DNA from: an uncultured archaeon
Lineage (GTDB): Archaea; EX4484-52; LFW-46
DNA length: 64,000 bases
Assembly: GCA_902384675.1 (NCBI GenBank)
Contig: CABMCT010000031.1
Location: 3,425 to 67,424 of the forward strand
Reading direction: 5' to 3'
Shown here: positions 4,575 through 56,130 of the stretch, one piece after another
Layout: the number at the start of each line of letters is the position of its first letter
How positions within the stretch are numbered: position 1 is the first letter of the stretch
Position numbers and translations under genes: made by a program
The notes under the pieces: generated by a model
Databases searched by the model: none
What the model was told of the DNA's origin: nothing
The model's input: the letters and a program-made list of their open reading frames with translations, nothing else

Positions 4575-4692
4575 GGATGTATATTGTGCCGAAAAATATA
4601 TTAAGCTTATAAGAATTCAAAAAAATCATGGCACTCGTATGTCAAGCTTTTCATTCCGAAGAAGTTGATGAATGAATAAAAATTAGCGGCTC

Positions 4693-4755: not shown

Positions 4756-5223
4756 TTAGCAGGTTACTCCTGGTCCTGCCGTCGTCGGGTCGCATGTGAA
4801 TGAGATGTCATAGCCGCCGGGGGTTGCAAGCCTTATTATCTTGGTTTGAGCCACGCTCGGGAAGCTTACATTTGTATTTATTGTCAAAACCTGGTTTGGC
4901 GCAAGCGACTGGCCGCTAAAACCCGTGATTGTTGCAGCCTGGCCGTTCAAATAGTATGCTGTTCCTGCAGCTCCAAGGTCCACTGCCGTTGTTCCCGTGT
5001 TTCTAAGGGCGATCGAGATGTTTGAAAGCGAGTTATTCCACATGGAATCCGCTTTAAGGGATGTCTGGGCCTGCTGCTGTATTTGGTTGACTCCCTGGGT
5101 TCCTGTATCCTGGGCACCCTTTTGCAGACCGCCTACCCACATGTAGGCTAATCCCGCTGCTGCAACAGTCATCATGAGCAGCAAAACAATCGCCACAACC
5201 GCCGTTATTCCTTTTTTTCCCAT
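4756..5223 (-). CDS. Archaeal type IV pilin-like protein (class III signal peptide)
   Basis: MGKKGITAVVAIVLLLMMTVAAAGLAY: short charged N-terminus followed by a hydrophobic helix; Thr/Gly/Asn-rich body. Confidence 0.7.
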   Translation of the reverse strand: MGKKGITAVVAIVLLLMMTVAAAGLAYMWVGGLQKGAQDTGTQGVNQIQQQAQTSLKADSMWNNSLSNISIALRNTGTTAVDLGAAGTAYYLNGQAATITGFSGQSLAPNQVLTINTNVSFPSVAQTKIIRLATPGGYDISFTCDPTTAGPGVTC

Positions 5224-5324
5224 TTTTAATCAACTCCATTTTCATTGGATTAAAAAGCTTTCTGCGTTAGCAGAATGATGTATTTCACCTAATTTATTGA
5301 GATTTAACGCATGATTGAAAAATA

Positions 5325-8624: not shown

Positions 8625-9324
8625 ACGCTTCTATAACGACAAGCTCTTCCCAATCAAACTTCTGCCGCGCAATTGCTTTTGCTGAGAAACCGATTTTTTT
8701 GAAGTGCAGCAGTGTTTTTTCATAGCGCGAAAGCGAGGATTCCAACAAGATTATTTTTCCGTGCGGATTCAGGAATTTTGGCGCGTCTTTTAAGAATCGC
8801 TCAATTATTTGCCTTCCGTCTTTTCCGCCATCAAGCGCGATGTTTTTGTAAATCGGTTCATCAGGCAGATACGGCGGATTGAAGACAATCAAATCAAATT
8901 TCCTCTCACTTGCGTTCGAGGCTTTTGAGGATTTTCCAGCTTGTCTGGAAATCATGCCTTGCGGCAAGCTTTTCAACCTTCGGTTGAAAAAGCCGAGAGT
9001 GTAACGAACGGACTCCCTATTCCTCAAAATTCCTTTTACATTCGCGAATAAATCGCTTTTGTGAAATTCTGCATTTTTTATTTTGTTCTGTTCGGCATTT
9101 TCTTTTGCGCACTTTACAGCTTCCGGGTTTATATCAACTGCAAGAACATGTTTCGCTTTCTTCGCTAAAACCAGCGCGATAATTCCGCTTCCTGTTCCGA
9201 TTTCCAAAACATTTTTCCCTTCTAAATTCAAATTCTGGAGCGCAGAAATCAGGAGAAATGTGTCTTCGGCGGGCTCGTAGACGTTTCCTGAAGTTTGGAT
9301 TTGAAAACCGTAAAGTCCGAGCAT
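8611..9324 (-). CDS. HemK/PrmC-like SAM-dependent methyltransferase (NPPY) with an in-frame ~37-aa repeat-derived insertion
   Basis: VLEIGTGSGIIAL motif I and LIVFNPPY motif IV. Segment ESVRYTLGFFNRRLKSLPQGMISRQAGKSSKASNASE between them is encoded by a dispersed-repeat copy (8915-9015). Confidence 0.8.
   Translation of the reverse strand: MLGLYGFQIQTSGNVYEPAEDTFLLISALQNLNLEGKNVLEIGTGSGIIALVLAKKAKHVLAVDINPEAVKCAKENAEQNKIKNAEFHKSDLFANVKGILRNRESVRYTLGFFNRRLKSLPQGMISRQAGKSSKASNASERKFDLIVFNPPYLPDEPIYKNIALDGGKDGRQIIERFLKDAPKFLNPHGKIILLESSLSRYEKTLLHFKKIGFSAKAIARQKFDWEELVVIEAFKPV
8915..9015. mobile_element. MITE-like dispersed hairpin repeat copy inside the hemK-like CDS
   Basis: 84 bp identical to 32819-32902; contains hairpins gcttttcaacc/ggttgaaaagc and ttccag/ctggaa. 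Confidence 0.7.
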
Positions 9325-9451
9325 ACAATCTCCTAGAATATCATGCCTTGCGGCAAGCTTTTCAATCCAGTAAATCCTTTCACTTCGTTCTAGGCTTTTT
9401 AGCCCAAAGTGAAAGGTGAATGGCTAAAAATGGATAATGATTGAAAATGAG

Positions 9452-9762: not shown

Positions 9763-10035
9763 TTAATCCGCCTCAATAATTGCCCCGAACTCTTTCGCAA
9801 TCCTCTCGGCATCCTCCTTTGTCTTAATGTTCTTTGCCATTATTTTACCGCTTTTAAACAGCGTAATTTCGGAATCAGGCGACTTTAGGAGCAGGACTTC
9901 CGGAGTTTCAACACATACTTCGAATTTTGTGCCCTTGAGCTTCTGTATTATGCTTTTGAAATCGACTTTGCGCAAGCCGTCGAAATTTATCACAAAAACA
10001 GTCCCGCCTGCGCAGGGTTTGACGACGAATGACAT
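9763..10035 (-). CDS. Single-repeat TBP-fold protein (half-size TATA-binding-protein-like domain)
   Basis: 90 aa; SEITLFKSGKIMAKNIKTKEDAERIAKEFGAII parallels the TBP repeat motif (LIFsSGKiVcTGAKSeed...arkyarii). Confidence 0.45.
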   Translation of the reverse strand: MSFVVKPCAGGTVFVINFDGLRKVDFKSIIQKLKGTKFEVCVETPEVLLLKSPDSEITLFKSGKIMAKNIKTKEDAERIAKEFGAIIEAD

Positions 10036-10040
10036 GTGTA

Positions 10041-10286
10041 TTACCTTCTTAGATTTTTAAGAAACTCTTCTTTATCAATTCCTGCCAAATCCAATATGCC
10101 GAGTAAGGTCCCGATTTTGACTTCCTTATGCATCGGAACAACAGTAACTTTCTTTTGTTTACTTAGGGTATTTTTTAGAATTACATGACTCCCGCTCTGC
10201 CTGATGGCCTCAAAGCCGAAATCTTTAGCAAGAATCTTAACTATTTCCTTTCCTGAAAGCTTAGGCAAGTTCGACACTAATAGCAC
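10041..10286 (-). CDS. hicA: HicA-family mRNA interferase toxin
   Basis: LSGKEIVKILAKDFGFEAIRQSGSHVILK...VPMHKEVKIGTLLGILDLAGI, YcfA/HicA signature. Confidence 0.8.
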   Translation of the reverse strand: MLLVSNLPKLSGKEIVKILAKDFGFEAIRQSGSHVILKNTLSKQKKVTVVPMHKEVKIGTLLGILDLAGIDKEEFLKNLRR

Positions 10287-10479
10287 CTACCGTTTTAATG
10301 CTTTTTAATTCCTCTCTCACTTCAGGCATTTCTTCAAGATAAAGCTCTACTGCCTCTTTTATATTTGCCATGGCTTCTTCTATTGTTTTTCCTTGCGTGG
10401 TTACGCCGGTAATAACTTCCTTGATAACATACATGTCTTCTTCTTTCCATACGACGGTCTGCAATTCCATAGAATACAT
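10261..10479 (-). CDS. hicB: HicB-family antitoxin
   Basis: 72 aa UPF0150-like (TQGKTIEEAMANIKEAVELYLEE); overlaps hicA by 26 nt. Confidence 0.8.
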   Translation of the reverse strand: MYSMELQTVVWKEEDMYVIKEVITGVTTQGKTIEEAMANIKEAVELYLEEMPEVREELKSIKTVGAISVELA

Positions 10480-10575
10480 TTGGCTTGGAAGAATTTAAAG
10501 GTTTAATATATCTGTTAATGATATATAAAGGAAGGAAAAGGCGGGGTTAAGAGCAATGCGCTTCTAATCCCAATT

Positions 10576-11654: not shown

Positions 11655-13040
11655 TTAGTGCTGGAAGTTTAAAAAACCGAAATCCTTTTTTTGTTTTTGG
11701 GGCACGTCAAACAAGTAGTATTTGCTAAACTGCTTTACAATGCTATCCAGCTCGCGCCCGTTTTTTGCAAGCAGTTCCATTACCTCGCTATATGCTTCTA
11801 TTGCGCCCCTGTTTGATTCCTCCCAGTTTATCGCCTCTACGCGCGGCGCTTCTGTATCAACAGGCATCAATGCGTCTGCGTTCTTTTTTGAGAACTCCAG
11901 GACTAAAGGAACCAAAACAGACACAGGGCACGTTTCCTCTATTTTCTTGTAGTGATTCTCTATCGAGTCCTCTGCACTACGGTAGCCCTGCCCTAAACTT
12001 TGGATTTCCTCAAGCATTCCAAAATATTCCTGTCGCTCCTCCACAGACGGTTCAGTATCCGCAATGCTTTTTTCAAAATCTTCCAGCGCCCTCATTTTTT
12101 CCCTGAATTCTTTTCGGCGTTGGGTAAACTCATTTTTGCAGCTTTCCAGCACCGGGTTTTCACTAAATCCGGTGAATTCAGCGTCCTCTGCCTTTGAATT
12201 CTTCATAGCCCTTATTTCAGGGTGTGTGTAAGCATCGATAAGAGCGAGCTCAATTGCGCTGTCAAACTCAAGGGCCTTCAGATACAGCGCCTTGATACTA
12301 TCCATTGACTGTTTTGAAAGCTCATCTTTTTCTGCTTTGCCGGCTTCTGCAAGCGCTTTTACGGCTTTGTCTGCAATAACTGCGGTCTTCAGTTTCAGCA
12401 ATACCTCGTTATACTGCTTAAGGGAATCTTCAAGAGCCGCACGCGCTCCGTCGTAGCAGAATTCGGGATATGCTTCGAATATGGCGTTTACTGTTGTCCT
12501 GTTTATCGCATGCTCTTTGTATATTTCTTTGAATCCCTCGCCGTACGCCCAAAAAACTCTTGCAAGCTGCACGTCGCTTATTTCGCTTCCTTCAAAGAAA
12601 GGCCTGGTATCGGCGCAAAGCCGCGCGTTTTCCGGTGATATAAGGAATTGCTTTTTGGCTTCTATGCTGCGCCTGATAGCCTTTTTGACTTCTTTTTTGA
12701 GCGCGTCCGCTGCGTCTTTGTAAGTGATGTCGGCTTTATCGTACTCCGGGTCGAAGGTTCTGACCGATTCATAAAGCTTTTCTTTTGGGATATTTCCGCC
12801 CCGCAAGCCGGACAGCCACTCTGACATATTTATTGCTTTTTTAACCCATTTGAAGAAGCGATAGTTACAGTCATTTTCCAAATAGTTCCCGTTTTCGGCA
12901 CGCTTCACAAAGTCTTCTGACATTGCTTCAGGGTCGTAGTCTATCCAGCTTTCGGGATCTTTGCATATCTGCAGGTCTCTCAAAAAGCTATCCCTGCCTA
13001 CCATTGTTCTAAAACGCCGCAGCGTATCGTTATAGTTCAT
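11655..13040 (-). CDS. Hypothetical protein (461 aa)
   Basis: Long ORF with protein-like composition; no motif recognised. Confidence 0.6.
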   Translation of the reverse strand: MNYNDTLRRFRTMVGRDSFLRDLQICKDPESWIDYDPEAMSEDFVKRAENGNYLENDCNYRFFKWVKKAINMSEWLSGLRGGNIPKEKLYESVRTFDPEYDKADITYKDAADALKKEVKKAIRRSIEAKKQFLISPENARLCADTRPFFEGSEISDVQLARVFWAYGEGFKEIYKEHAINRTTVNAIFEAYPEFCYDGARAALEDSLKQYNEVLLKLKTAVIADKAVKALAEAGKAEKDELSKQSMDSIKALYLKALEFDSAIELALIDAYTHPEIRAMKNSKAEDAEFTGFSENPVLESCKNEFTQRRKEFREKMRALEDFEKSIADTEPSVEERQEYFGMLEEIQSLGQGYRSAEDSIENHYKKIEETCPVSVLVPLVLEFSKKNADALMPVDTEAPRVEAINWEESNRGAIEAYSEVMELLAKNGRELDSIVKQFSKYYLFDVPQKQKKDFGFLNFQH

Positions 13041-14765
13041 ATCAAATCAAAAAGTACACAACCCGAAGGTATAGCGTCAATCTATGTCTTAAACAAAAAC
13101 AAAGACAGTAAAACAGAAATAAACGGGTCATCAGAAAGTTAGGTTAAAACGTGCACAGGAGCGTAGAATCATTCCCTGCAATTATTTGCCTGTTTTTTTA
13201 GTGCAGATTGATACATACATGCTTCTAACACAGGCGGACATGTGCCAAGAACTTGGATTTGCGGTTAGAAACTGCATGCGTAACCCTAGGCTATATTGTG
13301 TGTTTAAACTATATAAAGCTTTTCGACGATTGTCTATTTAAACGTAGTGATATGCCACATGTGAGTAACTATTAAAAAGTTATGAGCAGGTCATTGTCAT
13401 GTTTTTCAAAACAACTTTATTCATAAAATATACGGTTTTTTCTTTAATCTGATTTATGTCTTTTAGACGTAGTCAGGTCGAGGCATCGCGAATATAATTC
13501 GGGATGACAAAAAAGCCGGTGACGAGAGACACAGTAGACGCTGTGGGTAGTTCTACTTCTAGATTACCACGGCTGAATTGTCTTTGGTCAATTACAATCA
13601 TACCATCTGATGAAACGGAAGAAAAACGTCGAGGGGATGGTGCACGAGCAACGCCGTGCGAGCAATTTATTGCTCATGAGAGTTGCCAAAAGTATGGAGG
13701 CAAAGTATTATGGAGAGAACCAGTTTGGTAAAAAAGAGGTTTCAAAACCTCGGAGTCGAAAGTGACAGCTGCGGGATAATTGGAGGCGGTATAGATGGCG
13801 GAGAAATCGGGTTCTGAACCAGAGATTGACAAGACCTCAATAATTGCTCGGTTCGAAGAACTTTCGTCGGAAAAACAAGAAGCGCTCAACGCGCAGGTTG
13901 AAATCGTGGCGGAAAAGGAAGGCAGGATAATTTAACTGCAGTTCTGTGTAATGGACGAAGCGCCCACTCCCTTTGTCCATTACTTTTTTACGATGATAAA
14001 TAATTAACAGGAGGTGAAACATGAAGCAAAAAGGAAGAACTGGGAGGACTAAAGATAGGATAAGCCGAAGAAACCGATTAGTGAACCACGGTTAGTCGCG
14101 AGCTTTCTTTCTTTTAATTTCTTAATTTTTCCTTTTTTTACATTCATAACCCACTCAAGGGTTTTGAAGCAGGCGAAGTAGTGGCAACGTCTTCTTTAAA
14201 TAAATCCACTTTGGGCGCCGCTGTTCTTAGCAAACAATGCCTTTTTAGGGCATCAATTAGGACGGCGGCAAACAGTTTTGCAGTAACTCTTTTTTCTCTA
14301 AAAAAGAGGGGATGGACAGTTGTGGAAAAAAGTGACGGCAAGCGGTGGCGTTTGCCGGAGGTAAAATATGCGAGCTATTCAAGGAATACATAACAAGCGG
14401 ATCGGTGGATCCGGTAAAGAATCGTGGAAATATGGTGGAAACCGAGGGGATTCAAATGCAGGCAGTTGGCGACCTTTCTAGCGGAGAACTAGGGGGTGCT
14501 TTGGGACAAAATCCGCTCTTGCGGATAATAGCCTATGCGGAGCGTAAGGTTATTGACGGTATACGCGGATTGGCGTTGCGCCTAGGGCTCTATGTCGAGC
14601 CAGAGGAGCGACCTATACTCACTGCCGTTCGTATACCTGATGTGGTGACGTTCCAAGGCATTAGAAGGTCTTGCGTGGTTAAGCGCCTTCTGGATCCTTT
14701 TGGAAGAATAGTTGAAACATACTATCTCTTTTCAGGAGGTGCATCCTCCCCTACTTTTTTTCTCT

Positions 14766-14858
14766 TATATATCATTATCAGATATTAGTGAAACATCTTT
14801 AAATATTCTCCTCCCCATAATTGTCTTAAGTCCTGCTGTTTCGTCTTTCGTCGTGATT
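14766..14858 (+). promoter_or_regulatory. Copy A of shared ~95-bp TATA-containing promoter/leader repeat (upstream of 14860 gene)
   Basis: T-run, then tatatcattatcagata, ~45 bp, then gtcttaagtcctgctgtttcgtcttt; ~75% identical to 18401-18490. Confidence 0.6.
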
Positions 14859-14859
14859 C

Positions 14860-15432
14860 GTGATAACTATGGTCCGCCCGCCAAAGGAAGTAAAAGACCT
14901 GACAAAGCGCTATATCAAGCCCGATGAGGTTTATCGGGAACTTGAAGAGCGACCTGAGCCGCGCTTTCTTGAGGAGCCGGAGGAAGAGTATCTCGAGAAG
15001 GAGCCAAAGGAGAAGATAATTAAGCTCCGCGAGCGGGAGACGCTTCCAAGGGCAGAGGATGAGGAGATAAAGTCCCTGCAAAGGGTGAGCCCGCAAATAA
15101 TCGGAAACCTGTTTGACCGTGTGCGGTTTTTAAGCGAGAGGATAGCGGAATTAAAGGCCGCAATCGAGGAGCGAAAGCGGGTAAATAAGGAAATACTTTC
15201 GGAAATAAACGAGGATATCCTGACAAGAAAGGAATTCATGCGCACTCTGGCAGAATTGTCGGACAAGCGGGATTTTATGCTTGATATGTCCCTTCTTGCG
15301 CGGGAAAAGCGAAAGGAAAACGTGCAGTTCTGGCGCGATTTATTGGAAATATCAACCGAATTGCGCGAATTGCAGGAACAGTGGGAGATGGAAAGCAAGA
15401 TTGCATCGATATTTAACTCGATTAAGAGTTAA
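14860..15432 (+). CDS. Acidic coiled-coil protein, unknown function
   Basis: 190 aa, E/K/R-rich heptad-like sequence; probable start at ATG 14869. Confidence 0.5.
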   Translation: MITMVRPPKEVKDLTKRYIKPDEVYRELEERPEPRFLEEPEEEYLEKEPKEKIIKLRERETLPRAEDEEIKSLQRVSPQIIGNLFDRVRFLSERIAELKAAIEERKRVNKEILSEINEDILTRKEFMRTLAELSDKRDFMLDMSLLAREKRKENVQFWRDLLEISTELRELQEQWEMESKIASIFNSIKS

Positions 15433-15885
15433 ATAGCTGAGAGCGGCAGCGAAAGGATATTTGATTCTATCAATACGAAGTGATTCCTATGGTCGTAAGC
15501 ACAAAATATGTCGGGTACAGGGGCCTTTCGTACTGCATATATTGCGATATTCGCGACAGGGTGCAGAAGGCAGTGCGCAGGCTCATCAATCGCCTTAAAG
15601 GAAAGAAAGAGGAAAAAACACGGCAGAAAAAAGACCTCGGCTACAGGCGCTGGATGAAGACCGAATGGGGAGGAGGAGAAGTGTAGGCATTGAGAGGCAA
15701 TTGCATTGTACAGCCTACAATTCGACGACGAGTGAGGAGGAGAAGTATGATTTCTTTGTGCATAGCTTTATTGAGTACAAATCATATTTCGATTGGAGGC
15801 GAGGTATAATGGGATTGTACGTAGAGCTCATTGAAAACCATTGTACTGAGCCGATTGGTGGGGAAGTATAGATAATCATAAAGCT

Positions 15886-16521
15886 CTATTCGCTCTTTAG
15901 CTTTTTCAAAAGTTCGGCCTTTCTTATCTTAAATTCCCTTTGATTGAGCCCTAAATACGCTATATTTTTGGGGCTAAATGCGGTTATTACCTTTGATAGT
16001 TCTCCAGAGAGGTGAGGCAGTCCATACTTTTCCAGAAGCGCGCGATATTTTTTGAAGTCAACATCCACACTCAAAACCAAAGTCATTATATCTATCGCGT
16101 CTTTTTCGCCCTTTATACTCCCACGCCTGTCAATTTCTGCCGCCTGTTTTAATATAAGCAGGGCTTCCGGGATAATCACGTCAATGCCTTCCAGTTTTGT
16201 AGAGCAGTTTTTCAAATCTTGGAGCGGTATTACAAATTTTGAAAAAAACGGCACGTAAATATCGATATCTATCTCGTCGATTTTTATCTCATATTTTCGC
16301 AGTTGCTCGTTTTTTCGTAAGTCATAGTGCTGTTTCAGATAGTCAAGCGTCTTAAAGTCCTTCAAAACAATGTCGATATCTTTCGATTTATGCGCCTTTG
16401 TCCATAGAAACGCAGCCCACCCGCCGATAAGAATGAACTCAAACGGGAGCATTTTCAAGTCTAAAAGAATCTCCCAGCTTCTTCTTGTTACCATATCGCT
16501 CCAAAACTCCTTAATGGCCAT
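15886..16521 (-). CDS. Minimal nucleotidyltransferase-fold protein (AbiEii/MNT-like)
   Basis: ILIGGWAAFLWTKAHKSKDIDIV matches the GG...[ST]xDID NTase motif; overlaps its upstream partner by 11 nt. Confidence 0.55.
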   Translation of the reverse strand: MAIKEFWSDMVTRRSWEILLDLKMLPFEFILIGGWAAFLWTKAHKSKDIDIVLKDFKTLDYLKQHYDLRKNEQLRKYEIKIDEIDIDIYVPFFSKFVIPLQDLKNCSTKLEGIDVIIPEALLILKQAAEIDRRGSIKGEKDAIDIMTLVLSVDVDFKKYRALLEKYGLPHLSGELSKVITAFSPKNIAYLGLNQREFKIRKAELLKKLKSE

Positions 16522-17095
16522 GTATTTTCGCCTCCAGCGCCTTCAAAAAATCCTTTGCATACCACTCTTTTATATTCCAGAGGTCGGCAAAGGTCTGGCC
16601 GATTGTCGTTACGCTTCCGTATTTTTGAATATTCTTGTCTGCATTCAATACAAATAAGTTCGGCGGGTTTCTTGATGCGGGAAAACGCTTCTTAATTTCC
16701 GAAATATCCCGGGAATAAACATATACTTCTGAATAATCTGCAGGAACGTCCTTAAAAGCGAACTTATACGCAGAATACGCTGCAAAAACAGTATTTGAAG
16801 GCAGTAATTTCTCAATTTCTGAAACAGGCAGCTCAACGCGCGTGGAATAAATGATATCTCTTTGCAGGTTTCTGATATTCGCCCAGTAATACAGGATTTT
16901 TTCAATGTCGGTTACTTTAAAACCGCGCGCAAGAACCGCTATTGCGCCCATGGCCCTGAGCGGCCTTAGCGCATAATTGACAACGCTTATTGATATTCTA
17001 AGATTTTTGGAGAGCTCAAGCTGGGTAAAAGTGTGGCGCTTCTTCTCGATTGCCTGATAAAGCAATTCGCGATAAATCTGTTCTATGATTCTCAT
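16511..17095 (-). CDS. Winged-HTH protein partnered with the NTase (AbiEi-like)
   Basis: N-terminal FTQLELSKNLRISISVVNYALRPL wHTH; 194 aa. Confidence 0.55.
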   Translation of the reverse strand: MRIIEQIYRELLYQAIEKKRHTFTQLELSKNLRISISVVNYALRPLRAMGAIAVLARGFKVTDIEKILYYWANIRNLQRDIIYSTRVELPVSEIEKLLPSNTVFAAYSAYKFAFKDVPADYSEVYVYSRDISEIKKRFPASRNPPNLFVLNADKNIQKYGSVTTIGQTFADLWNIKEWYAKDFLKALEAKIHGH

Positions 17096-17589
17096 AAGTT
17101 TCTAATTATAAACTTTTGTATTTATAAATGTTTCTAATATATTAGAAACTCTTAATTTCTCTTTAATATGTAACCTTTTCTCAGTAGCAAAGATTTATAA
17201 GTATGGATATTCTAATAGTAGCGGGCTTTAGCGCTTCAATCATTTTCCTACAAACATTCCAATAAAGAACGAAGTCTTTGCTACTTTGTTTCCAAATGCC
17301 TTTGGGCTTTGGTTTTTTTGAGCCTCTGGCAAGAGAAAGACAAAACAGGTAGCTGGGCTGTTGTTTTCTGAATGTGATGTGGGAAGCGGTCGCATCATAC
17401 GCGCAGTAAGCGAAGATGCAGGAGATAAAAGTGGAATTAAGAGAAAAGTTAGAAAAAACCCTCGTTCTTCTTATCGGCGGCATTCTATTTTGGATAGTCT
17501 CAAAAGGAGCATATGCCGTACCTTTAGTGATTCTTGAATCATTGGCCATAGGATGGCTATGGCTTATAAAAGGAAGGAGGTGACAAGCG

Positions 17590-17736
17590 ATGAAGCATAA
17601 CATATTTACAGCCGTTTGGCTTGTATTGACTGGAGCGGTCGGGTACTTTACCTTACCAGTTCTCGGTCACGCAGCGATTTTCCCTACGGGTATATTCTAT
17701 GTTGCAGGAATCCTGGTGGGAAAGAACATACCGTAA
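17590..17736 (+). CDS. 48-aa two-TM membrane peptide (below ORF-track cutoff)
   Basis: ATG preceded by ggaaggaggtga; MKHNIFTAVWLVLTGAVGYFTLPVLGHAAIFPTGIFYVAGILVGKNIP; 16 nt upstream of the next gene. Confidence 0.45.
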   Translation: MKHNIFTAVWLVLTGAVGYFTLPVLGHAAIFPTGIFYVAGILVGKNIP

Positions 17737-17752
17737 TAAGGAGTAAAGCAAT

Positions 17753-18367
17753 ATGAAAAAAATAGAAGCCCTGTTATCTTATTTTCTTTTGTTCATTCAA
17801 AAGAAAATTGAACCGATTATGAAAACAAATATTGTCTCTTCCTTTATTTCGTTCACACGAAAAAAGGAGAAAGAGATAAGAAATATAGAACGCCCTTCAC
17901 AGAGAGCAATTTACGCCATACTATTTGGCGTCATTGCTGGAAGTCTATTTGTGATGGAATTTGCGAGAGAGTTGAGCAGCAACCACGAGACTTTAACAAA
18001 GTTTATATGGCTGGATGCTATAGTTTACGGATACCTGTTTCTTTTTGGGGCTACCCCTACCAGTGCATTTATGTATCTTTGGGTACTTCCATTTATATCT
18101 AAATTGAAGAGACCCAAAACATGGAATCCTCTTGAATGGGTTTTGGCACTAATGGAAACAAGCGTGTTCTGGTTCGTTTTAGTTCTGCTCATCCTTCTTC
18201 CCGTTTTCGGGACCGCTGTGTACAGGCTAAGGGTATTCGGATGGGCAGATTATGCAGCCAATATGCTGTTATTGATTAGTGCAGGTGTCTTCGGTTTTCT
18301 TGTGTGGTTATTCGCGCAAGAATCAAAATGTACTAGTACATCTTCATGCGAAAGTTCTATAATTTGA
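17753..18367 (+). CDS. Polytopic membrane protein (~6 TM), candidate channel subunit
   Basis: 204 aa; TM segments AIYAILFGVIAGSLFVM, IVYGYLFLFGA, FMYLWVLPFI, VFWFVLVLLILLPVF, LLLISAGVFGFLVWLFA; SD aggagt upstream. Confidence 0.6.
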   Translation: MKKIEALLSYFLLFIQKKIEPIMKTNIVSSFISFTRKKEKEIRNIERPSQRAIYAILFGVIAGSLFVMEFARELSSNHETLTKFIWLDAIVYGYLFLFGATPTSAFMYLWVLPFISKLKRPKTWNPLEWVLALMETSVFWFVLVLLILLPVFGTAVYRLRVFGWADYAANMLLLISAGVFGFLVWLFAQESKCTSTSSCESSII

Positions 18368-18400
18368 GGCAACTGCCCATTTCTTTTTTATTTTCTTAAC

Positions 18401-18490
18401 TATATCATTATAAGATACTTTTAAACCTTTAAATACCTCGCGCGCCAATATGTCTTAAGTCCTACTGTTTCGTCTTTTGTGAGGATTATA
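18401..18490 (+). promoter_or_regulatory. Copy B of the shared promoter/leader repeat (upstream of ATPase gene)
   Basis: tatatcattataagata ... gtcttaagtcctactgtttcgtcttt; see 14766-14858. Confidence 0.6.
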
Positions 18491-18601
18491 TTTTCGCTCG
18501 CAGCATAGTTTGATGACGAAAAATCCGTCGCGACACCTTATGAACCATTGATTGTGTCGCTTTCGGCTTTTAAATCCAATGAATATGGGGAATGATTTAA
18601 A

Positions 18602-20752
18602 ATGGCAGATTATATCCGTATAGATGTCGCGTCCGAAATAAAAAAGCTCGTTCCTGTTCTTGGAAAAGAGAACGCCCTTAAAATCGAGCAGGCGTACCTG
18701 TTGGGCGACGAGGAGATGAAAAAGCGCGTAATCGAGATGCTTGATTCTGTAAAAGCTGCTGCGTATGCCGACGAAAGCCTCAAAAATGCGGTTCTTCTTG
18801 AGGCGCCTTCGCGCGAAACAGCATCATGCGGGGATATTTTTGCAGGCACGGTGCTTTATGGCCAGAAAAGGCTCTACCCGTTCCTTCTTGACCGAAATAT
18901 GTTCCTCACGCATCTCGGGATTTTTGGCTCCTCAGGCTACGGGAAAACCAATGTGGTCCATAATCTTGTCCGCGAATTATCCGAAAAAAGCGTCCCTGTT
19001 CTTATTTTCGACTTCTCAAAGCGGAATTACCGCGACCTCATCAATATCCCGGAATTAAAGGAGCGCGTACAGATTTTCACTATCGGAAGAAACGCCTCGC
19101 CTTTTAAATTCAACCCGCTTTACCCGCCGGAAGGTGTTGAAATATCGCAGTGGATTAAGGAATTCGCAGAGATTTTCGACCATGCATACTGGCTTTTGGG
19201 CGGAGGACGGCATATTATTCTTAAAGTGCTTGATAAGGTTTACAAAAATCCTAAACCCTTCGATTACCCCCAATTACGGGCCATAAAATACGTATTGGAC
19301 GAGCTTGAAAGCGACAAGAATTCCGCAAGGGAGAGGAACTGGATTGTGACTGCGCAAAGGCCCCTGGAATCGCTGTGCTTCCGCGAAACAGGGCAGATAT
19401 TTGATACGAATAAAGGCATTCTTCCCTCGACTTTCTTTGAGGGGCAGAAAATCACAATCCTTGAGCTTGATTCCCTTACCACGAACGACAAGACTTTTTT
19501 CATCGAAATCATGCTGCAGTGGATACGCGACTGGCTTATCGTGAAGAACGCAAAGGAAAAGCTGTCAGGTGTTATTGTTCTTGAGGAGGCGCACCATGTC
19601 CTGAACCGCGAAAAATCGAAAAAAATGGGTGCTGAAAGCGTTATTGACCTTGTCTTTCGTGAGGTGCGAGAGCTTGGCATGGGCATAATCTATGTCGACC
19701 AGCATCCGTCCCTTATCAGCTATCCTGCTCTTGGGAACACGAGCACGCACATCTACATGAACCTGGGGCTTGATACGCAATATTCCTCTGATATTCAGGA
19801 TGCGTGCAGCATGTTGGGCCTGGATTACCGGAGCGAGGGCAAATACCTGCGCCAGCTGCCTGTAGGGGACGGCTTTCTGCTTTGCAGGAGATTGAGCTTT
19901 CCGCACCCGTTTTTAATACAGTTCCCCCTTGCAAAAATAGACAAGGGCTCAGTAACCGATGATATTGTAAAAAGCATTGCGCCAAAGCTTCCGGATGACG
20001 AAATCACAGTTCCTGCGGTCCATGGCCTTCATAGAAAAAAAGAAATCTCTGAGACCCATGAAACTCCTGCGGTGCATATTCAGGAAGTGGCACAGGAAGC
20101 ACCAGTACCCCCGCAAATTCCATTACCTCCTCCTGAAATCGAGAGGCAGCAAAGCAATAATATCATAAAACACAATCTTCCTGAAAGCTGCCTGAAGATT
20201 CTGCGCGTCCTGGGCCGCTTTGATGCATCTGCAACTTCTGAAATTTACAAGGGAATTTCAATGTCGGGCAGCACATTCAAGCAGAATGCGGACCGGCTAG
20301 TCAGCGAAGGGCTCTTGGGCGCAAGGACTGCAAAAGTGTATCGCCAGACATCGATTTTCTACTTCCTTACCAATAAAGGCGCAGCGCTTTTCTCAGGCAC
20401 TTTCAGCATGCTGCACGAGGATATCAATGCGGAGGAATTTTACAACGCTGCAGAGCGGCTTTTTAAGGGCGAGGGATGGGCTGTTGACCGGAGCAAAAGC
20501 ATCTGGACGCTTTTGCGAAAAGACAAGCAGGTGAACGTGATTCTTGTATCGGGGCTTGAGAGGGCCCAGCTTTCCGGCCAGGTTGCGAATGAAAGTGCTT
20601 ATTTTGTTGCTGCGACAGAGCATATCAAGAATGCAATAATCCAGATGGCAGCAAAGCGGGTGAGCGAGACCGGAAAGCCGTTTATTCTGTCTGTTTCTTC
20701 GTTTGAGGCGCTCCATAAGGGCGAGAAATTCAGAAAACTGGCGTTTGAATAA
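18602..20752 (+). CDS. HerA/FtsK/VirB4-superfamily ATPase with ~240-aa C-terminal extension (predicted wHTH plus unknown domain)
   Basis: Walker A GIFGSSGYGKTNVV; HerA-type Walker B VIVLEEAHHV; IIYVDQHPS (QRP-like) motif; C-terminal LPESCLKILRVLGRF...EIYKGISMSGSTFKQNADRLVSEGLL helix-turn-helix. Confidence 0.8.
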   Translation: MADYIRIDVASEIKKLVPVLGKENALKIEQAYLLGDEEMKKRVIEMLDSVKAAAYADESLKNAVLLEAPSRETASCGDIFAGTVLYGQKRLYPFLLDRNMFLTHLGIFGSSGYGKTNVVHNLVRELSEKSVPVLIFDFSKRNYRDLINIPELKERVQIFTIGRNASPFKFNPLYPPEGVEISQWIKEFAEIFDHAYWLLGGGRHIILKVLDKVYKNPKPFDYPQLRAIKYVLDELESDKNSARERNWIVTAQRPLESLCFRETGQIFDTNKGILPSTFFEGQKITILELDSLTTNDKTFFIEIMLQWIRDWLIVKNAKEKLSGVIVLEEAHHVLNREKSKKMGAESVIDLVFREVRELGMGIIYVDQHPSLISYPALGNTSTHIYMNLGLDTQYSSDIQDACSMLGLDYRSEGKYLRQLPVGDGFLLCRRLSFPHPFLIQFPLAKIDKGSVTDDIVKSIAPKLPDDEITVPAVHGLHRKKEISETHETPAVHIQEVAQEAPVPPQIPLPPPEIERQQSNNIIKHNLPESCLKILRVLGRFDASATSEIYKGISMSGSTFKQNADRLVSEGLLGARTAKVYRQTSIFYFLTNKGAALFSGTFSMLHEDINAEEFYNAAERLFKGEGWAVDRSKSIWTLLRKDKQVNVILVSGLERAQLSGQVANESAYFVAATEHIKNAIIQMAAKRVSETGKPFILSVSSFEALHKGEKFRKLAFE

Positions 20753-22502
20753 TTCGTTTCTTTTCTTTCTACCTGTCTCGTACTCCAAAGAATTAGCTTC
20801 GCATAAGTGACAAAAGTGGCAAAGGCTTATAAAGCTTTCTTATCAAATAAATTCGTCAATCGTACTACGCGTGCTTGCGCGGTTTCCATTTCATGCTTCC
20901 AAACACAAATTTCTTTTAAAGACATATCACAACCTTTCTAAGCAAGTGATATGCGCGTGTCAAGACATTGAAGACATCATAGGTAGTGCCAATTTGAGGT
21001 CGCGGCTACGCGAACCGAATAAAGACACTACATAGATCCTTAGAGCTCTTGCACGCGGGTTTGTGCTTTTGGGAGTTCAGAGGCGATGGGGAAGTATATC
21101 GTCTCTAGATTCTGGGGCGCTAACGAGAGCCTAGACTCGATGAGGGTGAAGCGCTCAGAATCTACAACCAAAGGAACGGCGAGCGAACATAAAAAAGAGG
21201 CGAACCCTAATGGGAAACCCTCAAAAAGGTGGTGAGAAATTATGGGAACCCATCAGTTCCATTTTGAGCAGTTCTAGATTGCTGATGAACCTAAAGTAGC
21301 TTCAGAGCGGCTACGAAGAGCATAAAAGAGAAGAATTCTCGCTCTTGCCTGAACCTACAGGCCTTTGTTCTGGAGAGGACGCGGGTGCCAAAAAAAGCTT
21401 AAGAACTTCTCGAATTTATAAGGGTTTGACCGTTTGGTCCCCGAATCCCGGACGTGTTGACTGAATGCAGGAAGGGCGCTTCAACCACAGTACAAGAAGG
21501 TAAATAAACGTGGCTGACACTTTAGACCTAGGAGCAGAAGCGCCTCTTCCAAATTTCTAATTAAATTGGAAAGAGCCTAAGACACTTTATGGGGCTTCGT
21601 AGCATCCCCTCCGATGACTCCATTAGTGCGCGTGTCTTGGGCTCCTTCTTTCTTGTTATGAAAAAACGGGAGTTGAAAGCATCGAATCCTCGTAGAAGTT
21701 GAGAGGCTTAAAGCGTTCTCGGTGCTTGCTTCATAACCGTCGGAGATGCACACATACCTCCGGCGGCGGGCAACTTTTTTAAGGTCTCATTGAACATTAG
21801 TTCAGTGACTCCTCGATACCACCCCCACTCCCCACCGCCCGTTCAACTCCCATTATGGTTTTGCATGTTGAGTAACAGAAACCATTTTCTGTGTCGCCCT
21901 ACACTGCCGGTAGGGCGCAAAAAAGTCGGGCGATACCTCATATCCTATCCATTGGCACGCCCGCGGAGATTCGGAAGGTAAGGTGAACGGTTGTGCAACT
22001 TTGGGACCTTCCGAATTTCTAATCATTTTTACAAAAACGGGGTCGCGGCGTTCGGTTTCCTCCTTCGCCGCTATTCATATTGGGAGAGCAGGGCTGATAG
22101 CAACAGAAGAGGCTCTCCCGATTCTAATTATAGAGGCATGGCGCAGTATTCCTTACATACTCTCGCTATGCACGAGGAAGGCACACCTTCTGTTAAAACT
22201 GTCATTGCCTTCCTCTTCCTTGCGATCATCAAAAACGCACCCTCTCCTTACGAACTGTCATAGGGGGTGTAGCTTTGATGGGGCGGCGGTCTTTTTTAGT
22301 AACTCCGAAACCCCAGCGGCTACCGCCGTCAGTATTCTAAGAGACGCCAACTTGGAACACTACCGCAGGGGTTTACATTTATCAGAGAAACTCTGGTAGA
22401 AATGGAATGAGGACGAGCGAAAGGTACGACTTTTTTAATTAACCCCCACTCCCCAACTCCTTGCCCGTTCTCACATTTTCTATTTTTAATGAATTACTAT
22501 GT

Positions 22503-22578
22503 GCCCGGATAGTGTAGTGGCCTATCATGAAGGACTATCAATCCTTCGACCCGGGTTCAAATCCCGGTCCGGGCGCCA
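22503..22578 (+). tRNA. tRNA-Asp-like gene with anticodon ATC (A34) and encoded CCA
   Basis: GCCCGGA acceptor paired with TCCGGGC, T-arm CCGGGTTCAAATCCCGG, anticodon arm GAAGGA-CTATCAA-TCCTTC. Body matches the archaeal tRNA-Asp(GUC) family except G34A and C38A. Confidence 0.75.
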
Positions 22579-22658
22579 TTCTATTTTTCTTTTTTCTTTA
22601 TTATATCATTATCAAATATATCATAACTATATAAACTCTTTCAGCCAATATATCCTGC

Positions 22659-22955
22659 ATGAAACGCGAAGAATCCTTTATTACAAACCTGACAAAGCTT
22701 TACGTCCTACTGATTTTATCCCGCGGTCCTGCACATGGTTATGATATAATGAAGGAGTTCAAGTCCGCGACAGGGAAGACACTCAGCCCCGGCCAGATTT
22801 ATCCTCTTCTTTCCGCAATGCAGAGAAAGGGATTCGTCGAGATGAGCGCAAAAATCGAGGGCAAGCGGCAAAGAAAAATTTACGCGCTTACGGATAAAGG
22901 CAGGGAATTCGCGGATAATCTCAAAGGAAAGATTGTAAAATTGCTGGGGCTATAA
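22659..22955 (+). CDS. PadR-family transcriptional regulator
   Basis: LYVLLILSRGPAHGYDIMKEF...IYPLLSAMQRKGFVE. Confidence 0.8.
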   Translation: MKREESFITNLTKLYVLLILSRGPAHGYDIMKEFKSATGKTLSPGQIYPLLSAMQRKGFVEMSAKIEGKRQRKIYALTDKGREFADNLKGKIVKLLGL

Positions 22956-22989
22956 CTGTATTTATATTCTAACCAAAACAATATGTAAT

Positions 22990-23376
22990 ATGCTCAAACA
23001 GCTTGCGCCTCTTCTTAAAAGGGCAAAAAAAGACAAGGACATAGTTGCAGTCATGCTTTTCGGCAGCGCAGCACGGGGCGAGAAATACCGCGATATCGAT
23101 GTTGCACTTGTGCTTAGAGCAGGCATAGATAGCGGTTCCATGTTTGATAAGCGCCTTGATTACTTGGGGGAGTTCTCTAATCTCGACATTCAGATATTTA
23201 ACCAGCTGCCGCTTTATATCCGGCAAAGGATACTTAAAGAGGGAAAGATATTGCTCCAAAACGATACTGATGCGCTTTACGATATTGCATTTGATACCAT
23301 ACGCGCTTATGAGGACTTCAAGTCTATTTACGAAGGATACCTTGAAGCTATAGAAAACCAATATGCTACTGCATAA
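22990..23376 (+). CDS. MNT-type nucleotidyltransferase antitoxin (MntA-like)
   Basis: VMLFGSAARGEKYRDIDVALV matches GSxxRGxxxxxSDIDv. Confidence 0.8.
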   Translation: MLKQLAPLLKRAKKDKDIVAVMLFGSAARGEKYRDIDVALVLRAGIDSGSMFDKRLDYLGEFSNLDIQIFNQLPLYIRQRILKEGKILLQNDTDALYDIAFDTIRAYEDFKSIYEGYLEAIENQYATA

Positions 23377-23388
23377 CAGGTTATTGCT

Positions 23389-23811
23389 ATGCTTGACAAA
23401 AATCGTATACTTGTAAAGCTGGACGAGATAGGCGGCTATTTATCAGAGCTTGAGGAAATAGCGCCGGATAGCTTTAGCGAGTACAAATCATCCATAGAAA
23501 AGCGAAGGGCGTGCGAGAGGCTTCTTCAAATAGCGATTGAATCTGTGGTTGATATTTCCCAATCCATCGTTAAAGGAATGCTGCTTGGCATGCCGAAAGA
23601 CGAGGATAGCATCTTCGAGACTCTTGCAAAGAAGAACCTCATCACAGAAAACATGGCAGGGACGCTGCGGGATATGAAGAATTTCAGGAACATCTTAGTG
23701 CACAGGTACGGGGTAGTGGACGATGCCAAAGTGTTCACGGCAATGAAAGCGCGTATCTTGGATTTTGAGGAGTTCAAAAAAGTAGTGCTGGAAATAGTAA
23801 AAGCATCCTAG
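23389..23811 (+). CDS. HEPN-domain toxin (HepT/DUF86-like)
   Basis: FRNILVHRY Rx4-6H HEPN motif near the C-terminus; 13 nt after the MNT gene. Confidence 0.8.
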   Translation: MLDKNRILVKLDEIGGYLSELEEIAPDSFSEYKSSIEKRRACERLLQIAIESVVDISQSIVKGMLLGMPKDEDSIFETLAKKNLITENMAGTLRDMKNFRNILVHRYGVVDDAKVFTAMKARILDFEEFKKVVLEIVKAS

Positions 23812-26737: not shown

Positions 26738-27275
26738 TTTTAAACATCTCCTTCTTCTTTGGTTTAAAAAGCTTGGAAACTGCATTTGCACCTTGGTATG
26801 CAAAGCTTGGAAATTCTTGCGAATTTCCATGAGTTTCCATGATTTCAAATCATTCCTCAATCTACTTGGATTTGAATCATCTCGTTCGCATAGCGAACTC
26901 GAAGCTTTTGGGAACCCTAAATCCCAAAAAGCTTGAAAGCGCAACTTATGCGCAAGCTTTCATGATGACAATCTATTGGTGAAGAGGGTATATAAAATCT
27001 GATATGATTTTTAAGCCGCGCTTCCACAACTTAAAATCCGTTCGCTATCGCTCTCGGCTTTTCAGACTTTGTCTGAAAAAGCGTGAAACTCGAATAAGCC
27101 GCAAGGAAGTTTCATGATTTTTATATACTCCTGTTTCCAATAATATTCAGTAATCTAATTTGGTGATATTATCGGAATTCTTGGCAAGCTCAAATCCAGT
27201 TTCGGTGGGGGGAAAAGCGATATTGACTCGAAAATAGACTCGGCATTCTCAAACCCCAACATTTCCGGAAAACTT

Positions 27276-32612: not shown

Positions 32613-32818
32613 TTTTTATCATTCTCCATATTTATTGGATAAAAAAGCCTGGAAACCGCAGTTTCCATGATTTTTTATCATTCTCCATTTTTAACCATTC
32701 ACAATTATTATTGGGTTGAAAAGCTTGACACGAAGCCATCTCGATAAATCTCGAAGGCTTCCAGCTTGAAAAGCTGGAGGTGTCATGATTTTACTTGGAT
32801 AAAAATCATCTCGTTTTA

Positions 32819-32920
32819 CTCGAGGCTTTTGAGGATTTTCCAGCTTGTCTGGAAATCATGCCTTGCGGCAAGCTTTTCAACCTTCGGTTGAAAAAGCCGA
32901 GAGCGCAAGCGAACGGATTA
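32819..32920. mobile_element. MITE-like dispersed hairpin repeat copy (intergenic), twin of the copy in hemK-like gene
   Basis: 84 bp identical to 8915-8998. Confidence 0.7.
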
Positions 32921-55882: not shown

Positions 55883-56130
55883 TTTTTATCATTCTCCTTC
55901 TTCTTTAGATAAAAAAGCTTAAAATCCGTAGATTTTATGATTTTTAGCCATCTCCATTTTTAACCATTAGCCCCTTACTTGGGCTAAAAAGCTTGCCACG
56001 TTGTGGCAAGATTAATTCACCATTTACTATAAGAATAAAACCGTACGGGATTCTGGCTCAGGTTGTCTCTAATTAGATGCTGCTTATTCTTTATAAATCT
56101 AATCGGGAGCCAAAACCCCCTAAAATTTCT

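What the first reader, a model, noticed from the sequence alone, without database searches (positions are those of the whole stretch)
14766..18490. Shared ~95-bp promoter/leader cassette upstream of three island genes
Two copies (14766-14858 and 18401-18490, ~75% identical) have the same layout. A T-run is followed by a TATA-like tatatcattat(c/a)agata, ~45 bp, then a 26-bp box gtcttaagtcct(g/a)ctgtttcgtcttt. They sit immediately upstream of the acidic coiled-coil gene and the HerA-like ATPase gene. A more diverged third copy (22602-22720) precedes the PadR-MNT-HEPN operon. This implies co-regulation of otherwise unrelated genes, as in viral or plasmid regulons, or a mobile promoter.
Basis: seen in the sequence. 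Interest (0 to 1): 0.65.

Follow-up and report, generated by a model that had tools for sequence, protein, structure and literature searches.

The report
Shared archaeal promoter module, probable PadR regulon
Four neighbouring genes or operons in this uncultured archaeon share a conserved intergenic module (T-rich tract, an 18-bp protein-binding-type motif, a TATA box), and two of them also share a conserved transcript leader; it looks like an ordinary small local regulon, probably run by the PadR regulator encoded next to it, and not a mobile or viral promoter.

Summary
The repeat is real and larger than reported. There are four copies, not three: A at 14755-14848, B at 18380-18477, C at 22579-22658, and a new copy D on the minus strand at 10545-10470 upstream of hicBA.

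All four share a T-tract, the motif TATRTCATTA-N4-AYAY, and a TATA box (CTTTAAATA or CTATATAAA) 8-11 nt further on. Only A and B carry the 26-bp box. It overlaps the predicted transcription start and forms the leader.

The second element fits the genome's leaderless geometry, with the TATA ending 22-26 nt before the ATG.

Relatives with 61-85% HerA identity keep the box at the orthologous acidic-gene and HerA promoters (TGTCTTAAGT invariant in 9/9). The upstream motif precedes the PadR gene in 7/7 lineages. It is about 20-fold enriched in close relatives compared with distant ones.

The genes are not an island. Acidic protein, HerA-wHTH and PadR form a conserved chromosomal cluster, interrupted here by toxin-antitoxin-type insertions.

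Best reading: a terminator T-tract, an operator for a local regulator (PadR is the leading candidate), a core promoter, and a cluster-specific start-site or leader element. No binding or transcript data exist. Ordinary kind, newly described instance.

The parts
10492..10545 (-). Copy D, new. On the minus strand: pyrimidine/T tract 10545-10527, motif TATATCATTAACAGATATA 10525-10507, TATA box CTTTAAATT 10500-10492. The hicB ATG is at 10479, with a second ATG at 10470 about 22 nt after the TATA.
   Evidence: HicB/HicA Pfam hits
10041..10479 (-). hicB (10261-10479) and hicA (10041-10286) toxin-antitoxin pair, downstream of copy D.
   Evidence: HicA_toxin 60 bits, HicB_lk_antitox 27.7 bits
14735..14765 (+). 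Copy A, 5' part: hairpin GGAGG-TGCAT-CCTCC (14735-14749) followed by a T-run (14755-14761). Terminator-like end of the upstream unit.
   Evidence: sequence; T-rich tract upstream of 25 motif instances
14768..14785 (+). Copy A motif TATATCATTATCAGATAT, the proposed operator.
14797..14805 (+). Copy A core TATA box CTTTAAATA.
14822..14848 (+). Copy A box TGTCTTAAGTCCTGCTGTTTCGTCTTT. It spans the predicted transcription start (about 14828) and the start of a roughly 41-nt leader. GTGAT Shine-Dalgarno-like sequence at 14860-14864; ATG at 14869.
   Evidence: TGTCTTAAGT invariant in 9/9 orthologous or paralogous promoters
14869..15432 (+). Acidic coiled-coil protein gene (187 aa). 78% identical to its L040 orthologue, and the conserved partner of the HerA-like gene.
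18380..18418 (+). Copy B: T-run 18380-18397, starting 13 nt after the stop codon of the 204-aa ORF, then motif TATATCATTATAAGATAC at 18401-18418.
18427..18477 (+). Copy B: TATA box CTTTAAATA 18427-18435 and box TGTCTTAAGTCCTACTGTTTCGTCTTT 18451-18477. Predicted start about 18458. Orthologue of the internal promoter L087 2340-2395.
18491..18601 (+). Stretch between box B and the HerA ATG. Hairpin-forming repeats at 18491-18522 and 18527-18560, then a proximal generic promoter (TATA 18568-18575, 26 nt before the ATG).
   Evidence: (family D4)
18602..20752 (+). HerA-like ATPase (DUF87). Homologues are annotated as carrying a C-terminal MarR-type wHTH.
22503..22578 (+). tRNA immediately upstream of copy C. 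ARAGORN assigns anticodon ATC.
22579..22658 (+). Copy C: T-run 22579-22599, motif TATATCATTATCAAATAT 22602-22619, TATA box CTATATAAA 22627-22635. The PadR ATG at 22659 lies 24 nt after the TATA, so the transcript is probably leaderless. There is no 26-bp box.
22659..23811 (+). PadR (22659-22955), MNT-type nucleotidyltransferase (22990-23376) and HepT (23389-23811). PadR is the candidate regulator of the motif.

Best explanation
Each 'cassette' is a composite intergenic control region. It is not one mobile unit. It has four parts.

1. An oligo-T or pyrimidine tract. This is the usual archaeal termination signal, and it ends the upstream co-directional gene or tRNA.

2. An 18-19 bp motif, TATRTCATTA-N4-AYAY. 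It can be read as TRT-N9-AYA, often a 6-7-6 imperfect dyad. I take it to be the operator of a sequence-specific dimeric regulator. The best candidate is the 98-aa PadR-family protein encoded directly downstream of copy C, which would then regulate itself.

3. A BRE/TATA core promoter (CTTTAAATA or CTATATAAA) 8-11 nt downstream of the motif. It starts transcription about 23 nt further on. For PadR and hicB that position is the ATG itself, giving leaderless mRNA as for most genes in this genome.

4. Only at the two promoters of the conserved acidic-protein / HerA-like cluster (A and B), a further element TGTCTTAAGTCC...GTCTTTYGT. It spans about -6 to +20 around the predicted start. It is either a second, cluster-specific operator at the start site or a required unstructured 5' leader.

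Shown: the repeats, their geometry, their conservation at orthologous positions, and their restriction to this lineage. Inferred: transcription start points, protein binding, the identity of the regulator, and the direction of regulation.
For: Repeat statistics.

Geometry. The TATA ends 22-26 nt before the ATG at 12 or more unrelated genes in the window, and the second AT-rich element of copies C and D fits that spacing.

Conservation of the motif plus TATA at orthologous promoters:
- L040 A, B, C and D.
- L043.
- L087 acidic, PadR and PspC-operon promoters.
- L091.

The PadR promoter carries the motif in 7 of 7 lineages, including PadR orthologues only 70% identical. PadR itself is 83-91% identical among relatives whose HerA is 77-79% identical.

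Lineage restriction. There are 21 motif hits of at least 17 bits in 143 kb of close relatives, against 3 in 403 kb of distant HerA loci.

Motif profile from 25 instances. TCATT and A15 are invariant. The flanks vary as TRT...AYA, with symmetric arms in several copies, for example L040-A TGTATC...GATACA.

PadR/MarR proteins bind palindromes of this size: TGT-N8-ACA for B. subtilis PadR and TGT-N10-ACA for the archaeal hsRosR (PMC5728393; PMC7145548).

PadR family membership: Pfam PF03551 at 71 bits, and PDB 3elk at 1.4e-12.

Box. TGTCTTAAGT is invariant in 9/9 promoters of the acidic gene or the 65-aa/HerA genes across 6 lineages, and the TATA-to-box spacing is constant in 8/9. The A-type (GTCTTTCGT) and B-type (GTCTTTTGT) forms each have their own orthologues.

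No RNA structure and no Rfam family explain the box.
Against: - There are no transcript or binding data, so all start sites are predicted from spacing alone.
- The motif's most conserved part, TCATTA, is asymmetric, and the right arm varies (GATAT, TATAT, AATAC). A symmetric dimer site is therefore not proven. The canonical TGT-N8-ACA is not matched.
- Motif-to-TATA spacing varies from about 3 to 28 nt among instances. That is loose for an activator site.
- Four or five instances (L044 2198, L086 3553, L087 9927, L091 8075, perhaps L087 227) lie after a gene with no co-directional gene downstream. A pure promoter-operator model does not explain them.
- Some orthologous promoters lack the motif (window 27040-27160 versus L040 10936) or carry a different palindrome in its place (L044-A, L083).
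- Other DNA-binding proteins nearby could be the binder instead: the 194-aa wHTH protein, the HerA wHTH domain, or the antitoxins.
Confidence: 0.55

Rival explanations
1. The T-tract plus motif belongs to the 3' end of the upstream transcription unit. It would be a termination or boundary element, for example a protein roadblock or insulator placed just after the oligo-T terminator. It is not an operator of the downstream promoter. On this view its closeness to promoters only reflects compact, co-directional gene arrays.
For: - In about 16 of 25 instances the motif follows a co-directional gene or tRNA within 100 nt, and the 20 nt upstream are 59% T and 78% pyrimidine.
- Four or five instances sit in convergent intergenic regions with no downstream co-directional gene.
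- At copy B the T-tract and motif are present only in genomes where extra genes were inserted upstream (window, L040). They are absent in L087, where the operon is contiguous.
Against: - Motif instances exist with no T-run and no upstream co-directional gene. L087 1317 lies in a divergent region and has no T-run; L040 10936 also lies in a divergent region but keeps a T-run; L091 2468 likewise has no nearby upstream co-directional gene.
- The motif accompanies the PadR promoter in 7/7 lineages whatever lies upstream: a tRNA, a 41-aa ORF, HepT, or non-coding DNA.
- It occurs at only 4 places in 64 kb, although the window has dozens of gene ends.
Confidence: 0.2
2. The shared module is a portable promoter that travels with mobile toxin-antitoxin and accessory gene cassettes, or a recombination junction left by their insertion. 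On this view the similarity reflects common descent by mobility and not a common regulator.
For: - Motif-bearing promoters precede mobile-type modules: hicBA (window), PadR-MNT-HepT (window), MNT-HepT (L043, L091).
- Copies B and C lie at the right edge of segments absent from some relatives: 15.4-18.4 kb, and 20.75-22.58 kb.
- The upstream module is gained or lost between orthologous promoters.
Against: - No integrase or transposase was noticed near copies A-D, though no systematic search was made. There are no terminal inverted repeats and no target-site duplications flanking the copies, and no attC-like GTTRRRY cores in the motif (sequence; repeats).
- The motif is also at core, syntenic promoters: the acidic gene, PadR and the PspC operon.
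- Flanks between copies are not alignable beyond the short functional elements. That pattern fits selection on sites and not recent copying.
- Viral-contig scans were negative.
Confidence: 0.12
3. The 26-bp box is an RNA element acting after transcription: a conserved 5' leader that binds a protein, a small RNA or the ribosome. It would not be a DNA operator at the start site.
For: - The box lies in the predicted transcribed leader of the only clearly leadered mRNAs seen here, which have GTGAT Shine-Dalgarno-like sequences.
- The leader is pyrimidine-rich and folds less stably than its shuffled versions, z = +1.78 for copy A. That would suit single-stranded recognition.
- A related GTCTTTCG motif is repeated four times in another ORF-free region, 28877-28912.
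Against: - No conserved secondary structure or covariation and no Rfam family.
- The invariant 10-mer TGTCTTAAGT straddles the predicted start, so about half of it would not be transcribed.
- In L068 similar GTCTTAA/GTCTTT repeats lie upstream of the TATA box. That favours recognition at the DNA level.
Confidence: 0.2

Closest known systems
PadR/MarR-family operators: B. subtilis PadR at the padC promoter (TGT-N8-ACA, an 18-bp 6-6-6 palindrome) and Halobacterium hsRosR (TGT-N10-ACA)
   Same: - A small PadR-family wHTH protein is encoded next to a site of the same size class, 18-19 bp, with TRT-N9-AYA flanks.
- The site sits at the regulator's own promoter, which suggests autoregulation.
- It also sits at a few neighbouring promoters.
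   Different: - The sequence is TAT/ATA-rich and not TGT/ACA.
- The spacer is 9 nt, and it contains an invariant asymmetric TCATTA.
- The site lies upstream of BRE/TATA and does not overlap it.
- No ligand, binding or repression has been shown.
Archaeal BRE/TATA core promoters with leaderless mRNAs
   Same: In copies C and D the TATA-like octamer ends 22-26 nt before the ATG, as at 12 or more other genes of the window.
   Different: Copies A and B instead have a leader of roughly 41 to 145 nt and a conserved element across the start site. The extra AT-rich motif upstream was mistaken for the TATA box.
Archaeal oligo-T transcription terminators (established knowledge: termination at T-tracts, assisted by aCPSF1/FttA)
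   Same: A T-tract of 7-20 nt directly after a co-directional gene or tRNA.
   Different: It is followed by a conserved non-T motif, which is not part of any described terminator. Function was not tested.
Autoregulated toxin-antitoxin promoters and their operators
   Same: hicBA and MNT-HepT modules sit behind the motif-bearing promoters.
   Different: The same motif serves different toxin-antitoxin families and also non-TA genes. A shared external regulator is therefore more likely than each antitoxin recognising its own operator.

Membership tests
Archaeal BRE/TATA core promoter | AT-rich octamer (TTTAWAWA type) centred about 26-27 nt upstream of the transcription start. In leaderless genes this is about 22-26 nt before the ATG. 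| tested here: met
CTTTAAATA or CTATATAAA ends 24 nt (copy C) and about 22 nt (copy D, second ATG) before the ATG. The same spacing is seen at 12 or more other genes.
Archaeal BRE/TATA core promoter | Experimentally mapped transcription start. | not testable with these tools
   No transcriptome data are available for this uncultured archaeon.
PadR-family regulator with cognate operator | A PadR-family wHTH protein is encoded at the locus. | tested here: met
   PF03551 at 71 bits against a cut-off of 27. PDB PadR-family hits down to 1.4e-12.
PadR-family regulator with cognate operator | Palindromic operator of about 14-20 bp (TGT-Nx-ACA type) at the regulated promoters, including the regulator's own. 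| tested here: inconclusive
   The site is 18-19 bp with TRT-N9-AYA flanks and 4-7 bp symmetric arms in most copies, and it is present at 7/7 PadR promoters. However, the core TCATTA is asymmetric and the TGT/ACA consensus is matched only piecemeal.
PadR-family regulator with cognate operator | Demonstrated binding of the protein to the site. | not testable with these tools
   Needs EMSA, footprinting or ChIP.
Archaeal oligo-T terminator | A run of at least 5 T shortly after the 3' end of a co-directional gene. | tested here: met
   Copy A has 7 T at 14755-14761, after a hairpin. Copy B's T-run starts 13 nt after a stop codon. Copy C's starts 1 nt after the tRNA. Copy D's starts about 30 nt after a stop codon. 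Termination itself was not tested.
Integron attC / gene-cassette recombination site | Imperfect palindrome of 55-140 bp with R''/R' cores (RYYYAAC...GTTRRRY), plus a nearby integron integrase. | tested here: not met
   The motif is 18 bp and no GTTRRRY cores are visible in the sequences of copies A-D. No integrase was seen among the proteins scanned, but the window was not searched exhaustively.
MITE / insertion sequence | Terminal inverted repeats with target-site duplication, and near-identical full-length copies. | tested here: not met
   The copies share only short blocks, 74% identity at best and flanks not alignable. The repeat finder lists no terminal inverted repeats around them.
Structured cis-regulatory RNA (riboswitch, leader) or known small RNA | Conserved secondary structure with covariation, or a match to an Rfam family. 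| tested here: not met
   Rfam returned only tRNAs, both at gathering threshold and at E <= 1. RNAalifold predicts no pairs for the box leaders. Single-sequence z-scores are not significant.

The most novel reading that the evidence does not exclude
The T-tract plus TRT-N9-AYA motif is a bifunctional boundary element of this DPANN-like archaeal lineage. The same PadR-bound site would stop read-through from the upstream unit and also gate the adjacent leaderless promoter. That would wire several toxin-antitoxin modules (hicBA, MNT-HepT), the PspC operon and the conserved acidic-protein/HerA-wHTH cluster into one stress- or defence-type regulon. The TGTCTTAAGT start-site box would be a second layer, read by the cluster's own wHTH ATPase.
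Probability: 0.15. Interest if true: 0.55.

Novelty: new member of a known kind. Interest (0 to 1): 0.3.

Why it matters
Transcription regulation in uncultured DPANN-type archaea is essentially uncharted. This locus offers a compact, testable regulon:
- a highly conserved 98-aa PadR protein;
- a defined 18-bp site at its own promoter and at 3-4 neighbouring promoters;
- a second invariant 10-mer at the start site of a widely conserved but uncharacterised acidic-protein / zinc-ribbon-like / HerA-wHTH gene cluster.

If confirmed, it would give the first operator-regulator pair for this lineage. It would also link toxin-antitoxin modules to a conserved ATPase cluster. It does not reveal a new kind of mechanism.

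Tried and rejected
1. A genome-contig scan with motif plus TATA returned 30 hits, all chance matches in AT-rich bacteria. The window's own genome is not in that collection.
2. Two viral-contig scans found nothing for the box and only chance matches for the motif.
3. A metagenome scan with the 23-nt box gave 0 hits. The pattern was too strict, because the L040 orthologue differs at 4 positions.
4. An exact look-up of the HerA protein failed. Relatives were reached through homology instead.
5. I first thought copy B arose by recent duplication of A after an insertion, and that a 65-aa ORF had been deleted between B and HerA. L087 has a box-B promoter between the 65-aa ORF and HerA in a contiguous operon, and it shares the B-type GTCTTTTGT signature with the window. 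I rejected both ideas.
6. I rejected the first AT-rich element as the TATA box on spacing.
7. I rejected an RNA structure or known RNA family for the box.
8. I rejected translation of the box as a peptide. Read by eye from the sequence, copy B has stops or no start codon in all frames.
9. I rejected attC or MITE readings on sequence features.
10. An RNAalifold run on the repeats between box B and HerA gave only weak covariation, 2 of 8 pairs. I did not pursue it.

Full report
**Observation**

Over 14766-14858 and 18401-18490 they are 72/97 (74%) identical. The alignment score is 40, against -6.7 +/- 4.6 for shuffled sequence.

The 26-bp box GTCTTAAGTCCTRCTGTTTCGTCTTT occurs exactly twice in the 64-kb window and none is expected by chance. 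The 17-mer TATATCATTATMARATA, allowing up to 2 mismatches, occurs four times against 0.07 expected. The fourth is new and lies on the minus strand at 10525-10509, with the same layout, upstream of a hicB/hicA pair.

The 'third copy' is similar only over about 22579-22650. From 22659 it is PadR coding sequence, and similarity there is at chance level. It has no 26-bp box.

**Anatomy**

All four copies share three elements:
- a T- or pyrimidine-rich tract;
- the motif TATATCATTAWMARATA;
- 8-11 nt further on, a second AT-rich element, CTTTAAATA (copies A, B, D) or CTATATAAA (copy C).

In copy C the PadR ATG lies 24 nt after this second element. In copy D the second in-frame ATG of hicB lies about 22 nt after it.

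Upstream regions of 41 other ORFs in the window show that this is the genome's normal geometry. A TTTAWAWA-type box ends 22-26 nt before the ATG at 12 or more unrelated genes, which implies mostly leaderless mRNAs. I therefore read the second element as the core TATA box.

In copies A and B the 26-bp box occupies about -6 to +20 relative to the predicted start (about 14828 and 18458). Copy A then has a leader of about 41 nt with a GTGAT Shine-Dalgarno-like sequence 4 nt before the ATG at 14869.

Copy B is not adjacent to HerA. Its box ends at 18477, 124 nt before the ATG at 18602, and that stretch contains two hairpin-forming repeats and a second, generic promoter whose TATA (18568-18575) ends 26 nt before the ATG.

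**Context**

The HerA-like protein is identical to NCBI VVB60151.1 from an 'uncultured archaeon'. One close PadR orthologue is labelled as coming from a Nanoarchaeota MAG.

Relatives fetched through HerA and PadR homologues show conserved synteny. The order is GatC, a 450-aa gene, the acidic 187-aa gene, a 65-80 aa ORF, HerA-like, PadR, a 710-810 aa gene on the opposite strand, and a PspC operon. In L043, L044 and L084-L087 the acidic gene, the small ORF and HerA are contiguous. More distant genomes keep the acidic/HerA pair.

So these are not unrelated island genes. The window differs from its relatives by insertions:
- a wHTH/211-aa pair and a membrane protein between the acidic gene and HerA (15.4-18.4 kb);
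- MNT-HepT after PadR;
- hicBA.

The 65-aa ORF is absent from the window.

**Conservation of the box**

TGTCTTAAGT is invariant in nine promoters from six lineages (HerA identity 61-85%). These promoters always precede the acidic gene, the 65-aa ORF or HerA. The TATA-to-box spacing is constant in eight of the nine.

L087, whose operon is contiguous, still has a box promoter between the 65-aa ORF and HerA. It shares GTCTTTTGT with window copy B, while all acidic-gene promoters have GTCTTTCGT. A and B are therefore old paralogues kept similar by selection, not a recent duplication.

The box leaders show no conserved RNA structure, no significant folding and no Rfam match. In L068 similar GTCTTAA/GTCTTT repeats lie upstream of the TATA box. 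I favour a DNA-level start-site operator specific to this cluster. A single-stranded RNA leader function remains possible.

**Conservation of the upstream motif**

The motif recurs at orthologous promoters in relatives:
- L040, upstream of the acidic gene, the 65-aa ORF, PadR and the PspC operon;
- L043, upstream of MNT-HepT-PadR and upstream of PadR;
- L087 and L091;
- PadR orthologues only 70% identical.

Every PadR promoter examined has it, 7 of 7 lineages.

A PWM built from nine sites finds 21 hits of at least 17 bits in 143 kb of close relatives. It finds 3, without T-tracts, in 403 kb of loci whose HerA is 46-67% identical.

Across 25 non-redundant instances the consensus is TATRTCATTA-N4-AYAY, with TCATT and A15 invariant. 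Many copies form a 6-7-6 imperfect dyad, for example TGTATC...GATACA in L040-A. The flanks read as TRT-N9-AYA.

PadR/MarR proteins bind palindromes of this scale. B. subtilis PadR uses TGT-N8-ACA, an 18-bp 6-6-6 site, and archaeal hsRosR uses TGT-N10-ACA (PMC5728393; PMC7145548). The local PadR is a clear family member. It is also more conserved than HerA: 83-91% against 77-79%.

**What does not fit**

- The invariant TCATTA is asymmetric and the right arm varies.
- The distance from motif to TATA ranges from about 3 to 28 nt.
- Four or five instances follow a gene but have no co-directional gene downstream: L044 2198, L086 3553, L087 9927, L091 8075, perhaps L087 227.
- The window's PspC-operon promoter has lost the motif that L040 and L087 keep.
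- L044-A and L083 carry unrelated palindromes at the same position.
- At copy B the T-tract and motif are present only where genes were inserted upstream.

These points keep a terminator-side or boundary role alive. They also show turnover of the upstream module between close relatives.

**Conclusion**

The finding is a real, conserved cis-regulatory architecture built from known kinds of parts. These are a terminator T-tract, a probable operator (PadR is the leading candidate), a core TATA box with leaderless starts, and, for the acidic/HerA cluster only, a conserved start-site or leader box.

It is not generic to all promoters, not viral, and not demonstrably mobile. It is a new instance of a known kind, of modest interest mainly because regulation in this archaeal group is unstudied.

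Noticed in passing
window 4642-4686, 18562-18606, 28304-28348, 29154-29198; reverse-orientation copies at 5221-5260, 32611-32650, 55881-55920 and others: A second, more widespread shared promoter cassette, about AAGCTTTTTWATCC-AATRAAWATGGAGAATG-GATWAAAAATG. The TATA region and the 8-9 nt just before the ATG are reverse complements of each other. The arms co-vary between copies and between species (AACC/GGTT, AATC/GATT, CAGCC/GGCTG). It precedes HerA, a pilin-like gene and others. It is unclear whether this is a DNA palindrome or an RNA hairpin.
   Followed up: partly
window 20760-22500 (also 13040-14340); L044 9241-9403, L091 947-1300, L043 2645-2750: An ORF-free stretch of about 1.7 kb between HerA and the tRNA, with GC up to 0.49. 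It has repeated CTTTTTT...CCCACTCCCC units. One block, window 21294-21450, is 85% identical to L044 although HerA is only 64% identical at protein level there. This is a candidate conserved non-coding RNA with no Rfam match.
   Followed up: partly
window 22503-22578; L044 9863-9938: The tRNA just upstream of copy C scores as a good tRNA (62 bits) but has the anticodon loop CUAUCAA, giving anticodon AUC, which is unusual for archaea. Its orthologue in L044 has anticodon UCA, which would read UGA. L086 has only a tRNA-like acceptor/T-arm at the same place.
   Followed up: partly
window 28877-28912: Four tandem GTCTTTYG units at 9-11 nt spacing, related to the 3' half of the 26-bp box. They lie inside another ORF-free region of about 1.5 kb (28100-29650).
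   Followed up: no
window 13085-13110; L068 2205-2245: TGTCTTAA followed by an inverted AAGACA. In the window it lies in the divergent region upstream of the 461-aa gene. L068 has the same kind of GTCTT/AAGAC repeats upstream of the acidic-gene TATA. GTCTT may be a recurring half-site.
   Followed up: no
window 8916-9004 vs 32820-32908; 32367-32472 vs 33214-33319; 8951-8976, 9340-9365, 32855-32880: Near-identical (96-100%) dispersed intergenic repeats of 26-106 nt. They are built from the same GCTTTTCAACC...GGTTGAAAA and ATCCGT...CTCGGC sub-units and resemble a family of modular intergenic elements.
   Followed up: no
window 15886-17095 (minus strand): Overlapping pair of a 194-aa wHTH protein and a 211-aa protein with no family hit, inserted between the acidic gene and HerA. 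The arrangement resembles an AbiEi/AbiEii-type toxin-antitoxin pair, but this was not confirmed.
   Followed up: partly
window 9763-10035 (minus strand): A 90-aa ORF directly after hicA with a weak match to a single TBP-fold domain (PF00352, E = 0.0015, below the family cut-off).
   Followed up: no
window 14869-20752 and loci L040, L043, L044, L068, L080, L084-L087: The acidic coiled-coil protein, the 65-80 aa Cys-containing small protein and the HerA-like ATPase with a C-terminal wHTH form a widely conserved archaeal gene cluster of unknown function. HerA is about 50% identical even in Aenigmarchaeota and Thorarchaeota MAGs.
   Followed up: partly
window 20909-20926 (minus strand): A weaker reverse-oriented match to the motif (TATGTCTTTAAAAGAAAT, 18.7 bits) without a T-tract, about 160 nt after the HerA stop. 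It lies in a stretch conserved in L043 and L040.
   Followed up: no
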